The notes beneath the pieces were generated by a model. The model saw only the letters and a list, made by a program, of their open reading frames with translations. It was not told the origin of the DNA and did no database searches. DNA of 64,000 nucleotides, from NCBI RefSeq assembly GCF_009914755.1, contig NC_060936.1. One strand, 5' to 3'. The position numbers and the translations under genes are program-made. This document shows, one piece after another, positions 9,910 to 60,996 of this stretch (its first letter is position 1; each line of letters opens with the position of its first letter). The DNA comes from the human T2T-CHM13v2.0 reference genome, Homo sapiens.

Positions 9910-9918
9910 CTGATTCTG
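9910..9918 (-). CDS. CEP290: Candidate 9-nt in-frame microexon (QNQ) in intron 44
   Basis: ~50-nt pyrimidine tract...ccaccttaag|CAGAATCAG|gtgtgt; phase 0. Confidence 0.65.
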
Positions 9919-55779: not shown

Positions 55780-56260
55780 AAATGAACAAAAGCAAGCAGA
55801 TTTTGGGAAAAAACCCCTCAAATATGGAAGACAGGACCAGCAAAGATTGACTTTGCCATTTTTAAAGATTTAGTCATAGGGCAGGGTGCAATTGCAGAGA
55901 TCTATCATCTTTCTCATCTAGAAAACCACAGGATACAGCCCAAAGCCATGGGATAAGTGAAAGGAAAATCCCAATAAGAAAAGAGTCAGCAAAAACGAGC
56001 TCCAAAGTCGGTGTAAAAAACTCCTCAAGGTCTCAAGCTGACCCTTGAACCAAAAGAACACAGATAAAGAGGAAAATGTCAGTGAACTTGAAGACAGATT
56101 AATAACAATTATCCAATTGGTAGAAGAAAAGTATTGAAAGCAGCTCAAGAAAAACTACACTTTACATACAGGGAAACAATGATTCAAATGACTAAAAATA
56201 TCTCATCAGAAACTATGGAGATCTGTACACAGCAGAAAATCTCTCTAAAGTGATAGGGGA
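55780..56260 (+). mobile_element. Old L1 ORF1 fragment
   Basis: tcagtgaacttgaagacaga...atctcatcagaaactatggag. Confidence 0.6.
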
Positions 56261-56289
56261 AAAACATTAACATGAAAAAAATAACTTAC

Positions 56290-56432
56290 ATTAACTAGTC
56301 TTTCAAGGCTAGGGATAATTAGAGATGTTTCTCCTCCTTTAACATCAGGATCTTTCTGCATTTCCTTAATTGCTTGCAATATTTCTTTCATACCTTCTTC
56401 AAGTTGCTTATTTTCTTCAACTAATTCTTTTA
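56290..56432 (-). CDS. CEP290: CEP290 exon 20 (143 nt)
   Basis: LKELVEENKQ...PSLERLVN; cag|, |gtaagt. Confidence 0.97.
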
Positions 56433-56967
56433 CTGTAATTACACAGTTTTCTCATTGGATGATCAGATCTTTTTCACAATTTACACTATGCTATACAGAT
56501 GACAAATATTTCACATATACCAAAGACATCATTGGAAAAATCCAAATGTAAATAAACATACAAAAAAATTCAACTATAAATCCAACGTGAATAGTTGAGT
56601 TAAATGACAGACCTATTTATATCACGTGCATATACACACGTATATAAGGCATACTTCTGCCTTAACTTAAACTATGCTTTATATTAAAGTATTTTAAATT
56701 TGGTGTTCTAACTTCATTTTGATTGAAGAACACACAAGAAAAAGGAGTTATATATTCTCACAAAAAATTCATATTAGTAACATTCTCTCACAATGAAAAC
56801 AGCAAGGCAAATCAACTGGATAGTGACAGACTGAAGTATATACAGTACAGAGGTAATTAGGAGTAAAGCAGATTAGAAAACAGAGAATGTGTTAACGCCC
56901 TTTTAGGCCCATGATTTTAAGTATAGGAAAAATAAGAACAGAAAAGTAAAAGATAATTGTAACTTAC

Positions 56968-57052
56968 ATTTATTCTGAAATTTGGCTATCACTGTCCTAC
57001 TCCTTTCTAAATCTCTTTCTTTTTCAATTAGTTCTCTTGAAAGAAATTCATT
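56968..57052 (-). CDS. CEP290: CEP290 exon 19 (85 nt)
   Basis: NEFLSRELIEKERDLERSRTVIAKFQNK; cag|, |gtaagt. Confidence 0.97.
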
Positions 57053-57347
57053 CTGAAAAAAGCAGAGAGAATAAAATTGATTTTTTTCAACAAAATATCA
57101 CAAGTCTATAATTTTCAAGTTAAGAAAAGTTTGATCAATTAAGTATAACAAAACAAAACAAAAAAAACGAGCTATGAAGACATAGCAGCAATCATAAAAA
57201 TAAACTAAAATCTAAACAGTAAAGCAGATGGTGATCTTAATCCCACTTTCTCCCTCTCCCAACATCCATGGTAAGAGGCAAAAAGATATAACGGTTTTTG
57301 TCTTTAGTACCACAATCATCTCTTTTAATGTTCTGCCTTTACACTAC

Positions 57348-57440
57348 CTGTTCTGCCTGGCTTCTGTGATGTTCAAGCTCTATATCTGCATTTCTACACT
57401 CTGCTTCTTTGATCAAGAATTCCTGTGCTATGATTTCATT
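57348..57440 (-). CDS. CEP290: Candidate non-canonical in-frame cassette exon '18b' (93 nt, 31 aa)
   Basis: NEIIAQEFLIKEAECRNADIELEHHRSQAEQ; ttttctttag|, CAG|gtagtg; phase 0-0. Confidence 0.8.
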
Positions 57441-57635
57441 CTAAAGAAAAATTTAATAAATTAGACAAGTCAATGAGTTCATATCAATGTACTGCATTTT
57501 AGATTTTAAAAAGTACAATGTGTATAACTGATGTTAAAGTGCAAACAAAAATATTCTAACTATAATTGTTACAGAACTTTGTTAGAGACGTCATAAAAGA
57601 ACAACCACAGAAATATAATTTGGAGAAAAACTCAC

Positions 57636-58403
57636 CTGAGATCTAAGAAATACTAGCTCTCTCCGTAACTGTTCTATAAGATTTTCAAGAGAATTTATCT
57701 GAGATAATTTTGATTGTGCAGTAATAGACACAGGGTCTGGAAGATTAACCTTAAGCTTATTTTTCAATATCTCTGTCTGTAAGGGTACTTCACTTTTTAT
57801 TATATCTTCTTTCAAATTGATATCAGCATACTTTACTTGGGAATGAACCTGTTCTTCTTCTAATGTTGCTACTTGTGATTTATCCATGTCAGCTCTATTT
57901 TCATGAATTTGTTGACAAAATATTGCAGATTTTTGCCTAAGTGATAACTTCTGCATTATGTCTGAAGCTGTTGATAAGCCATGAAAAGATGAATTGCTTT
58001 TTTGTACAAAACTAGTCTTCTCTAGTGCTTGATGGCTTCTTGACACCTTCTTCATACAGTCATCAGAAAAAAGGCATATGTCATTTATTTCTTCATGGCT
58101 TTCCCTACTAAAGGTGCTGACTAACGATTCTAGATTTCTTGAAGACTGCAGACATGGTGCTTTAAAAATCTCTCTTATTGTAATAGTTTCTGGAGTTGAA
58201 TTCTCTTTAACTTGCATGGATGAAGAAAGTCTAGTTAAAGGGACAAAAGGATGCATTCCACTTTCTACACTATGGTGAATTTCAGATAACATTCTTGATA
58301 ATGATCCTATGGTCATATTCTCTTCTGTCTCATTCTGATCTGACTGTGGGGTATTGAATGATGATCTCCTATGCAGCAGCTCTGCTTTATCTGAACTCCT
58401 AAT
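57636..58403 (-). CDS. CEP290: Candidate non-canonical in-frame cassette exon '18a' (768 nt, 256 aa)
   Basis: Stop-free IRSSDKAELLHRRSSF...ELVFLRSQ; acceptor tactctgaatacag|, consensus donor CAG|gtgagt; phase 0-0 matches intron 18. Confidence 0.85.
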
Positions 58404-58562
58404 CTGTATTCAGAGTAAATAATGTCTCATTAATCAATCTTTGAATCAACAGGTTAAATAAGCAAATATTTCCCTCTACTTATTTAACAACAATAATAAG
58501 ATTAGATGTTCAAGAATGAGATAAAGGGGGAAGACATGAAAACACAATAAAAATATTTTCCT

Positions 58563-59061
<499 letters not shown>

Positions 59062-59621
59062 CTACTATTCCAACACTTTAATTCTTAAAACCTACAATCA
59101 AGTTTTAATGCAAAGGTAGAATAATTGTTTCCAAAATCCCTCCAAAATTCTACATAGCCAATACAAGCTTCTCATTTAGCTCACTTTTAATGAACTATTA
59201 ATAATGTGAGAACCTAATTTTTGAATTTCATCTTCTCTACCATTCTTTGCCTATTCTATATTAAAGTGCTACTTAATAAGCACCAGTTAAAAGACATATA
59301 AAGTAAATATAAATGATGAGTAATGAGTAAACTGATTATTGTACTAATAAATCATGAAGTTTTTTCTTGAGAAAGTTTTGGATGTATTATAGAAATCATA
59401 ATGCTAAAAAGAACCACTCTGCTATTACTCATATACGTGCTTGGGGATTTGGGGCAAGTGAAAAAGACAGTCCTTCTGTGTGGTCTTCTTACAAAAAAGC
59501 ACTGCAATGGCTATTATAAAACTTAACCAACTGTTCTCTTTAGCTCAAGTAAAATAAACCCAAGAAAGATGTTAATTTATATTCAATAAAACATTACTTT
59601 CACTTAGAAAAGAATAATTTA

Positions 59622-59938
<317 letters not shown>

Positions 59939-60352
59939 CTTACAAGAAAAGCTTTTCAATGCATAGTCCTTAAGGAAAGGGAAAATGTTGAGTAACATAT
60001 ATTAACATAAAAACTACTAAGTTTTATTATTATTAATAACAACATATTGGTGCTGTCTAGAAATTAAAATACTATACTATAAAACTTTTCAAAAATTCCA
60101 TAATTCTAAGGTTTTTTTCTTTTTTGTTTGCTTGGTTTTTGTTATTTTGTTTTGTTTTGTTTTTGTCTATTTCAGATTCAGGACTGAACCCACTGACACT
60201 CACTTATCTCCTTCAGGTTATTATTGTCATTTATTAAATTTGTAGCAGATCCACAATAGAACAGCAAAAACAGCTAAGACACAAATAATTTCATATCCAG
60301 ACAACTCACTTATCAATAATTCTTTTTAAAGGTTTAGAATAACTGAGTATAC

Positions 60353-60440
60353 CTGAAGTTGCACTTCTTTTTCCTCTTTCTTGAGCCATTTGACGAATTT
60401 TTTTTTTCAGATCAAGTCGTTCTTCCTCTAGACTTTCAAT
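60353..60440 (-). CDS. CEP290: CEP290 exon 17 (88 nt)
   Basis: IESLEEERLDLKKKIRQMAQERGKRSATS; cag|, |gtatac. Confidence 0.97.
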
Positions 60441-60512
60441 CTGCAAAGTATAAATTATTAGTATTTCTCTATAGTTCAGCCAAGAAAATAATCAACTGAC
60501 TACCACACTTGC

Positions 60513-60613
60513 CTCTTTCAAAAGAATCTGGTTTTCAGCTCTGTACTGCTGCTGTTTTAAGTGTTTGCTATTTCTAAATTCAGTTAAATCAATCATTGTC
60601 TTTGGTTCAAGGC
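60513..60613 (-). CDS. CEP290: CEP290 exon 16 (101 nt), GC donor
   Basis: [10 protein letters not shown]...QILLKE; donor GAG|gcaagt. Confidence 0.95.
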
Positions 60614-60932
60614 CTACAATAGAAAGCAATATAATTAAAAACTTAAAAACATTCAAATAAGCTGCAAAAATGTCATATACCATCAAGCAACTGGTTATAA
60701 TTCACTTAGCCAGTATCACTGAAGAATGAGGTAACTTTCTGTGAAAGAATTTTCCAGATATTTAAACTGTAACCCAAGTTAAAATTTTATCACAATTATT
60801 AATGGAAATCCTAACAAAAACCTAAATGAAATTATAAACCAAGATTTGGAGCTTTTTAAGCACAGAAAATATGATGTCTATGACAGCTACCTAGACGGGC
60901 CAGAAGTCATCTTTAGGAACTTCCAGATTCTT

Positions 60933-60996
60933 GGCTGTGATCTGATAGTCCAAGTTGATCAGAAGGCTGTGATCTGATAGTCCAAGTTGATCAGAA
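60933..60996. repeat. Perfect 32-bp tandem duplication
   Basis: ggctgtgatctgatagtccaagttgatcagaa x2. Confidence 0.97.

What the first reader, a model, noticed from the sequence alone, without database searches (positions are those of the whole stretch)
57348..57440. Second in-frame cassette exon (93 nt) in intron 18, resembling exon 19
Seen: ttttctttag|AATGAA...GAACAG|gtagtg encoding NEIIAQEFLIKEAECRNADIELEHHRSQAEQ, a helical/coiled-coil-like phase 0-0 exon 195 nt after the 768-nt exon. Its start aligns with exon 19 (NEIIAQEFLIKE vs NEFLSRELIEKE; 5/12 identical, same hydrophobic spacing, both begin AATGAA). Inference: an ancient tandem exon duplication; co-inclusion with 18a gives a 287-aa module.
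Basis: partly seen in the sequence, partly recalled or inferred. Interest (0 to 1): 0.78.

Follow-up and report, generated by a model that had tools for sequence, protein, structure and literature searches.

The report
Conserved alternative 93-nt CEP290 exon
This is a real, mammal-wide conserved optional exon of the cilia gene CEP290 that adds 31 helix-forming amino acids; it is already in predicted gene models, and the idea that it is an old copy of the next exon is suggestive but unproven.

Summary
On the minus strand, 57440..57348 is a 93-nt open, phase 0-0 stretch with an AG acceptor and a GT donor. It lies 195 nt after the 768-nt exon, between CEP290 exons 18 and 19. The human sequence alone is not beyond chance: 10 such open pseudo-exons pass the same crude criteria in this window's introns. 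Conservation is what makes it real. Of 84 public CEP290 protein models from placentals, marsupials and platypus, 66 carry a 31-residue orthologue. In 44 it follows exon 18a and in 22 it stands alone between exons 18 and 19. Horse-opossum identity is 25/31, above the whole protein's 74%. The exon is single-copy in the genome and is already in RefSeq model isoforms, including human X7, X10 and X17. I found no paper describing it. The duplication idea is undecided. The first 12 residues of 18b and exon 19 are reciprocal best matches within CEP290. But hhalign gives only P=0.022, gapped profile alignment ranks exon 19 fourth or fifth, and the DNA shows nothing. Tissue use and function remain unknown. 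The human branch shows an excess of changes in 18b.

The parts
57348..57440 (-). Alternative cassette exon '18b' of CEP290: 93 nt, phase 0-0, 31 codons (NEIIAQEFLIKEAECRNADIELEHHRSQAEQ). T2T chr12:88097348-88097440.
   Evidence: Orthologues in 66 of 84 database models. Listed by the hub's RefSeq table under exons of other transcripts.
57441..57460 (-). 3' splice site of 18b: pyrimidine-rich tract ending in tag (tttattaaatttttctttag).
   Evidence: 9 of 12 pyrimidines at -15..-4.
57342..57347 (-). 5' splice site of 18b (CAG|gtagtg). Matches 6 of 9 positions of MAG|GTRAGT, so a weak donor, as is usual for a regulated exon.
57441..57635 (-). 195-nt intron between 18a and 18b. Not open if retained: the frame stops after 14 codons beyond 18a.
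   Evidence: One search shows the ORF 57591..58409 running 14 codons past the 18a donor.
57636..58403 (-). Alternative exon '18a': 768 nt, phase 0-0, 256 codons. Ser-rich, fast-evolving body with a highly conserved helical tail (ENLIEQLRRELVFLRSQ). Consensus donor (9 of 9), weak acceptor (7 of 12 pyrimidines).
58903..59015 (-). Constitutive exon 18 (113 nt), ends in phase 0 after residue 608.
   Evidence: Index 608.
56968..57052 (-). Constitutive exon 19 (85 nt, phase 0 to 1), NEFLSRELIEKERDLERSRTVIAKFQNK. The proposed parent of 18b.

Best explanation
57348-57440 (minus strand) is a genuine alternative coding exon of CEP290, kept by selection and lying in the intron between constitutive exons 18 and 19. 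Including it preserves the frame and inserts 31 residues between residue 608 and residue 609 of the canonical protein. By my arithmetic and the window coordinates this is c.1825-388 to c.1825-296. That assumes the N-terminus of isoform X7 is the canonical one. The exon is used in three ways in gene models: 18|18a|18b|19, 18|18b|19 and, with 18b skipped, 18|18a|19.

Inferred mechanism: the 31 residues are charged and free of Pro and Gly, so helix-forming. They extend N-terminally the heptad-patterned coiled coil that begins with exon 19. When 18a is present, they join 18a's conserved C-terminal helix to that coiled coil. The result would be a longer CEP290 rod, with 18a adding a disordered, motif-bearing loop.

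The weak donor (6 of 9 consensus positions) fits an exon that needs tissue-specific activators. Which tissue uses it is unknown.

Shown here: the exon anatomy, the frame, conservation, presence in models and single-copy status. Inferred: the helix and spacer role and the regulated inclusion.
For: Anatomy and frame.

Conservation: one search found 66 proteins (E<=1e-3, of 101 candidates) with the 18a tail and/or 18b. One search found 57 (E<=1, of 1313 candidates).

Tally of all 84 models P0026-P0109: 44 have 18a+18b, 22 have 18b only, 16 have 18a only, and 2 were not classified by my patterns. Of those two, rat P0108 has both exons by eye.

In 64 of the 66 18b-bearing models, exon 19 starts exactly 31 residues after the 18b start, so there are no indels.

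Species with 18b span primates, rodents, lagomorphs, carnivores, ungulates, bats, xenarthrans, afrotherians and three marsupials.

Identity horse-opossum: 18b 25/31 (81%), whole protein 74%, exon 19 71%, 18a 47%.

UniRef entries for Papio, Bos and Canis also carry 18a, and Papio carries 18b as well. What pipeline made them is not stated in those outputs.

Single match in the human genome, and the hub table does not mark the stretch as a repeat.

No Pro or Gly in any of the 35 distinct 18b peptides.

My crude heptad scan finds a continuous a-g register from exon 19 onward and in the 18a tail, and none in exon 18.
Against: I could reach no transcript reads, junction counts or peptides. All support for use comes from predicted models, and those would not list species in which the exon is broken, which is an ascertainment bias.

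I had no DNA from other species, so I could not separate synonymous from non-synonymous change.

On the human branch, 4 of 30 resolvable sites changed, against 0 on the macaque branch. The rate elsewhere in the protein is about 0.011 per site. This fits relaxed constraint in apes, so the exon may matter less in humans.

The heptad scan did not score human 18b itself as a strong heptad segment.

The ESM Atlas's own model of the hedgehog protein is poor (pTM 0.16).

The platypus model has 18a joined directly to exon 19.

No paper describing the exon was found in nine literature searches.
Confidence: 0.82

Rival explanations
1. Origin by tandem duplication. 18b arose as a copy of the 5' part of exon 19, before the marsupial-placental split, and then diverged. 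This concerns origin and is compatible with the best explanation.
For: Both exons start AATGAA in phase 0. The human first-12 anchored score of 29 is reached by 1 of 1863 CEP290 12-mers, and that one is exon 19 itself. With 20-species profiles, the start of exon 19 is the top ungapped window for 18b: 1 of 2708 at w=12 (z 4.8), 1 of 2692 at w=20, 1 of 2676 at w=28 and 2 of 2670 at w=31. Exon 19's first 12 residues find the 18b start as top hit (z 4.44). Anchored identity over the first 36 nt is 21/36, the highest among 36 canonical exons in the window; the next is 16.
Against: hhalign of 18b against exon 19 gives P=0.022, probability 2.2%, and only 12 columns aligned. Against the rest of CEP290 its best hit lies elsewhere (E 0.62). 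Gapped profile Smith-Waterman places exon 19 fourth to fifth among peaks at all four gap settings. With exon 19 as query at w=20 or 28, 18b is not in the top 5. 3.8% of 917 CEP290 12-mers have a best non-self match of z>=4.84, so the score itself is ordinary for this coiled coil. In the human-only local alignment, 1.9% of 2000 shuffles and 1.8% of 1847 windows reach the score of 30. DNA with 100-nt flanks gives p=0.11. Length and end phase differ. The window width and the anchoring were chosen after the similarity had been seen.
Confidence: 0.3
2. The exon is functional in most mammals but is drifting, or has changed role, in apes and humans. It remains open and spliceable in human, but under relaxed constraint.
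For: Human-branch changes in 18b are 4 of 30 sites against 0 on the macaque branch. Other segments show 7 of 586, 6 of 234 (18a), 1 of 293 and 16 of 1442. Macaque-horse identity is 29/31, but human-horse is 24/31. The human models in the database carry the same peptide as the window, so it is not private to this assembly.
Against: The numbers are small: the human-versus-macaque binomial p is 0.125. The frame is intact, both splice sites are present, and RefSeq still models it in human. No other ape sequences were seen, so the timing of the changes is unknown. 18a shows no human excess (6 against 6).
Confidence: 0.25
3. It is splicing noise: a chance open pseudo-exon picked up by automatic annotation, with no function.
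For: Ten comparable open AG..GT pseudo-exons exist in this window's introns. The donor is weak. Only predicted models carry it. No paper was found.
Against: The length is an unchanged 31 codons in 64 of 66 models. Horse-opossum identity of 81% exceeds that of constitutive exon 19 and of the whole protein. Neutral intron sequence would not keep that (inference from general knowledge).
Confidence: 0.06
4. The conservation reflects a non-coding role. One example would be an intronic RNA element that pairs with the exon 19 acceptor to tune exon 19 splicing.
For: Inverted repeat I1 pairs 57391-57424 (inside 18b) with 57042-57075 (exon 19 acceptor region): 34 nt, 74% complementary. Duplex energy is -34.3 kcal/mol, reached by 3.6% of 500 dinucleotide shuffles and by 0 of 50 other 93-nt windows of the intron.
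Against: The pairing is not part of the minimum-energy fold of 56968-57460. Part of the complementarity comes from a GAATTC palindrome that overlaps the codon of a human-branch residue change (my reading). No covariation data were available. Amino-acid-level conservation without indels fits coding better.
Confidence: 0.04

Closest known systems
RefSeq/Gnomon model isoforms of CEP290 that already contain this exon (human isoforms X7, X10 and X17, and models in dozens of mammals)
   Same: The same exon at the same coordinates. The hub table lists 57348-57440 among exons of other transcripts, and human models P0057-P0059 carry the identical 31 residues.
   Different: These are predicted models, not the selected transcript NM_025114.4. 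I found no experimental description in nine literature searches.
Tandem duplicated exon substitution events (mutually exclusive homologous exons; PMC8373072 and PMC9741552, seen only as search listing and abstracts)
   Same: Neighbouring exons that start alike, in the same phase, in a helical protein.
   Different: Per those abstracts, such events are mutually exclusive substitutions of a homologous region; that the paired exons usually match in length is my recollection. Here 18b and exon 19 are included together (64 of 66 models), differ in length and end phase, and their homology is not significant. CEP290 does not occur in either paper's text (0 occurrences).
Musashi-dependent photoreceptor-specific microexon of Cep290 (PMC9509328 and PMC4991804, passages read)
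   Same: A conserved, frame-preserving alternative exon in the same gene.
   Different: That exon is a microexon of 30 nt or less, traceable to fish. This one is 93 nt and was seen only in therian mammals. Its tissue is unknown.
Pathogenic CEP290 pseudo-exons (c.2991+1655A>G exon X; the c.2818-657T>G 37-bp poison exon, PMC12018183 passages)
   Same: Intron-derived sequence spliced into CEP290 mRNA.
   Different: Those need a mutation, break the frame and are not conserved. 18b needs no mutation, keeps the frame and is conserved.

Membership tests
Frame-preserving alternative cassette exon of a coding gene | AG acceptor with pyrimidine tract, and a GT donor | tested here: met
   tag acceptor, 9 of 12 pyrimidines; donor CAG|gtagtg, 6 of 9 consensus positions.
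Frame-preserving alternative cassette exon of a coding gene | Length a multiple of 3, open in the gene's frame, flanking exons in matching phase | tested here: met
Frame-preserving alternative cassette exon of a coding gene | Both inclusion and skipping forms exist | tested here: met
   In gene models only. NM_025114.4 skips it (hub table). 66 of 84 database models include it and 16 of 84 have 18a without it.
Frame-preserving alternative cassette exon of a coding gene | Direct transcript or peptide evidence in the organism | not testable with these tools
   No RNA-seq, EST or proteomics resource was available. PMC10111803 supplements list 15 retinal CEP290 transcripts (8 novel) without exon structure in the passages I fetched.
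Frame-preserving alternative cassette exon of a coding gene | Conservation at protein level across species | tested here: met
   horse-opossum 25/31; 9 of 31 columns invariant in 20 species; no indels in 64 of 66 models.
Tandem-duplicated exon (paralogue of exon 19) | Statistically significant sequence similarity to the neighbouring exon | tested here: inconclusive
   Top-ranked anchored ungapped profile match. But hhalign P=0.022, rank 4-5 with gaps, and DNA p=0.11.
Tandem-duplicated exon (paralogue of exon 19) | Same length and phase as the parent exon | tested here: not met
   93 nt phase 0-0 against 85 nt phase 0-1.
Tandem-duplicated exon (paralogue of exon 19) | Mutually exclusive use with the parent exon (substitution type) | tested here: not met
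   64 of 66 models with 18b have exon 19 directly after it.
Exonised transposable element | Overlap with a repeat family, or many copies in the genome | tested here: not met
   One match in the whole genome, itself. The hub's repeat list does not cover 57348-57440. The nearest listed repeat is the stretch at 58535-58879, which reads as an Alu.
Musashi-dependent photoreceptor microexon of Cep290 | 30 nt or less | tested here: not met
   93 nt. Definition taken from PMC9509328 passages.

The most novel reading that the evidence does not exclude
18b, alone or with 18a, is a cell-type-specific CEP290 module. It would lengthen and re-register the coiled-coil rod at residue 608/609 in one kind of cilium, for example sperm flagella, photoreceptors or multiciliated cells. 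If so, variants now filed as deep-intronic (c.1825-388 to -296, and the 768-nt exon upstream) could cause tissue-restricted ciliopathy that current exon panels miss. In this reading, 18b began as a partial copy of exon 19.
Probability: 0.12. Interest if true: 0.6.

Novelty: already known. Interest (0 to 1): 0.3.

Why it matters
CEP290 is a major gene for Leber congenital amaurosis, Joubert and Meckel syndromes (abstracts and passages). Diagnostic pipelines follow the selected transcript, so 861 nt of conserved optional coding sequence (18a plus 18b) is treated as deep intron. If an isoform with these exons is needed in some tissue, loss-of-function variants there would be overlooked. Exon-skipping or mini-gene therapies built on the canonical cDNA would also lack the module. 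For 18b alone the practical weight is modest. It is a short helical insert whose use in humans is undocumented, and it may be under relaxed constraint on the human branch.

Tried and rejected
- The genome search 'own' failed twice, then worked.
No model of the long isoform was made, and alignment A1 went unused.
- Pfam gave no family for 18b, 18a or the hedgehog 975-aa model.
- Rfam gave nothing in 56000-60000.
- PDB sequences gave no match.
- The ESM Atlas gave only generic vertebrate coiled-coil look-alikes (CDR2, CCDC13, SOGA3) at scores of 0.91-0.93 with low shared-feature counts. I took these as uninformative.
- A two-block alignment of 18b to exon 19 with a one-heptad gap looked attractive by eye. 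It was not favoured once the same freedom was given to every other part of CEP290.
- Non-mammalian 18b could not be looked for. They returned no non-mammal, and no vertebrate genome collection was available.
- Literature: nine searches and passages from twelve papers gave nothing on this exon. One search was badly designed and ranked papers without CEP290. PMC3784542 is not held.
- The plus strand has only an 82-codon stop-to-stop frame across the site, with no other feature.

Full report
**What is there**

Read on the minus strand, the window shows a pyrimidine-rich tract ending in tag. It is followed by 93 nt that begin AATGAA and end GAACAG, and then by gtagtg. The 93 nt translate without a stop to NEIIAQEFLIKEAECRNADIELEHHRSQAEQ.

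Joining the 36 annotated CEP290 exons of the window gives one open frame. In that frame exon 58903-59015 ends in phase 0 and exon 56968-57052 starts in phase 0. The 93-nt stretch ('18b') therefore keeps the frame, and so does the 768-nt stretch 195 nt upstream ('18a', 256 open codons). Counting from the window's exon list, these flanking exons are exons 18 and 19 of 54. In the human model P0059, 608 residues precede 18a, so the insert sits between residues 608 and 609.

**Is it more than chance?**

Not on the human sequence alone. I set crude splice-site thresholds at 18b's own values. With them, ten open AG..GT pseudo-exons of 60-300 nt whose length is a multiple of three occur in this window's introns, 18b among them. 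The case rests on other species.

**Conservation and use in gene models**

- A search of 1.84 billion representative proteins with 18a gave 22 hits at E<=1e-3.
  - Most are ORF fragments that run from 18a into the intron.
  - One, P0023, splices part of 18a to an 18b orthologue.
- Two word-indexed searches reached full-length proteins.
  - One search gave 66 hits among 101 candidates.
  - One search gave 57 hits among 1313 candidates.
- A first search gave a hedgehog model with 18|18a|18b|19 and a beaver model with 18a only.
- I tallied all 84 models P0026-P0109 with sequence patterns.
  - 44 have 18a and 18b; in 42 of them the order 18a|18b|19 is directly adjacent.
  - 22 have 18b alone between exons 18 and 19.
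  - 16 have 18a without 18b.
  - 2 were not classified. One of these, rat, has both exons by eye.
- Exon 19 starts exactly 31 residues after the 18b start in 64 of the 66 models with 18b.
- There are 35 distinct 18b peptides, and none contains Pro or Gly.
- The species cover all major placental groups and three marsupials.
- The one platypus model has 18a joined directly to exon 19.

In a 20-species alignment, horse-opossum identities are as follows:

| Segment | Horse-opossum identity |
|---|---|
| 18b | 25/31 (81%) |
| Whole protein | 74% |
| Exon 19 | 71% |
| 18a | 47% |
| Last 20 residues of 18a | 90% |

The peptide has a single match in the human genome, and the hub's repeat list does not cover it. 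I conclude that 18b is a real optional coding exon that is at least as old as therian mammals. It is already in RefSeq predicted isoforms, including human X7, X10 and X17, so the exon is not new to annotation.

**Literature**

Nine searches and passages of twelve papers turned up no description of this exon.

- The photoreceptor-specific Cep290 exon of the Musashi papers is a microexon of 30 nt or less, so it is a different exon.
- A retinal transcript meta-analysis lists 15 CEP290 transcripts, 8 of them novel. The supplementary passages I fetched give no exon structure.
- Supplements of bioRxiv preprints were closed and may bear on this.

**How it may work (inference)**

- My crude heptad scan finds a continuous register from exon 19 onward and in the tail of 18a. 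It finds none in exon 18, and no strong one in human 18b itself.
- The simplest reading is that 18b is a helical extension at the N-terminal end of the coiled coil that starts with exon 19.
- When 18a is present, 18b would link 18a's conserved terminal helix to that coil.
- The donor matches only 6 of 9 consensus positions, while 18a has a perfect donor and a weak acceptor. This fits regulated, separable inclusion, as the three model patterns show.
- No family, RNA motif or solved structure matched, and the Atlas look-alikes were generic.

**The duplication idea**

Evidence for:
- In human, the first 12 residues of 18b score 29 against exon 19's first 12. This is reached by 1 of 1863 CEP290 12-mers, exon 19 itself.
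- With 20-species profiles, the exon 19 start is the top ungapped window:

| Window width | Rank of the exon 19 start |
|---|---|
| w=12 | 1 of 2708 (z 4.8) |
| w=20 | 1 of 2692 |
| w=28 | 1 of 2676 |
| w=31 | 2 of 2670 |

- The first-12 match is reciprocal.
- The first 36 nt are 21/36 identical, the best of 36 exons; the next is 16.

Evidence against:
- hhalign gives P=0.022 and probability 2.2% over 12 columns. When offered the rest of CEP290 it picks another site.
- Gapped profile alignment ranks exon 19 fourth to fifth under all four gap settings.
- With exon 19 as query at w=20 or 28, 18b is not in the top five.
- 3.8% of 917 CEP290 12-mers have an equally strong best match somewhere in the protein.
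- DNA with flanks gives p=0.11.
- The exons differ in length and end phase.
- They are co-included in models, not exclusive.

What stands out is the position of the best match, exactly in register at the neighbouring exon's start. That anchoring was chosen after the similarity had been seen. I put duplication at about 0.3.

**Side observations**

- The human branch carries 4 changes at 30 resolvable 18b sites, against 0 on the macaque branch. The rate in the rest of the protein is about 0.011 per site.
- Macaque-horse identity is 29/31, but human-horse is 24/31. This hints at relaxed constraint in apes.
- 18a-like ORFs P0010, P0019 and P0020 are about equally distant (26-36% identity) from human, opossum and platypus 18a. 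So 18a is probably older than mammals. Whether 18b is also older could not be tested.
- A 34-nt imperfect complementarity links the inside of 18b to the exon 19 acceptor region. It is marginal and probably chance.

**Verdict**

- The exon is real and conserved, but it is already annotated in predicted models.
- The tandem-duplication origin is suggestive only.
- Tissue use and function remain open.

Noticed in passing
window 57348-57440 (-), human against macaque models P0059 and P0050: The human branch has 4 residue changes at 30 resolvable sites of 18b and the macaque branch has 0. The rest of CEP290 runs at about 0.011 per site on the human branch, and 18a shows 6 against 6. This could mean relaxed constraint or a change of role in apes. 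No other ape sequence was seen.
   Followed up: partly
window 57636-58403 (-); proteins P0010, P0019, P0020, P0105: Exon 18a has ORF-fragment homologues that are about equally distant (26-36% identity) from human, opossum and platypus 18a, so it is probably older than mammals. Platypus model P0105 has 18a. Its tail ENLIEQLRRELVFLRSQ is far better conserved than its body.
   Followed up: partly
window 57391-57424 and 57042-57075: A 34-nt inverted repeat (74% complementary) lies between the inside of 18b and the exon 19 acceptor region. Duplex energy is -34.3 kcal/mol, reached by 3.6% of 500 shuffles and by 0 of 50 other intron windows. It is absent from the minimum-energy fold.
   Followed up: partly
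window 60441-60512 (-): The canonical exon 60513-60613 is followed by a GC donor (gcaagtgt) and an intron of only 72 nt before exon 60353-60440.
   Followed up: no
window 60891-60983 (-): Another 'other transcript' exon is also 93 nt long, but it has no AG before it, though it does have a gt donor. It is probably an alternative first exon, not a cassette.
   Followed up: no
window 9910-9918 (-): A 9-nt (or 6-nt) microexon, CAGAATCAG, has an ag acceptor and a gt donor. It is a candidate for the conserved photoreceptor-specific Cep290 microexon of the Musashi papers (PMC9509328). Its identity was not checked.
   Followed up: no
window 58535-58879: A repeat that reads as an Alu (poly-T run and GGCCGGGCGCGGTGGCTCA-type sequence on the gene strand's complement) sits in intron 18 between exon 18 and 18a. 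The family name is my recognition, not a tool result.
   Followed up: no
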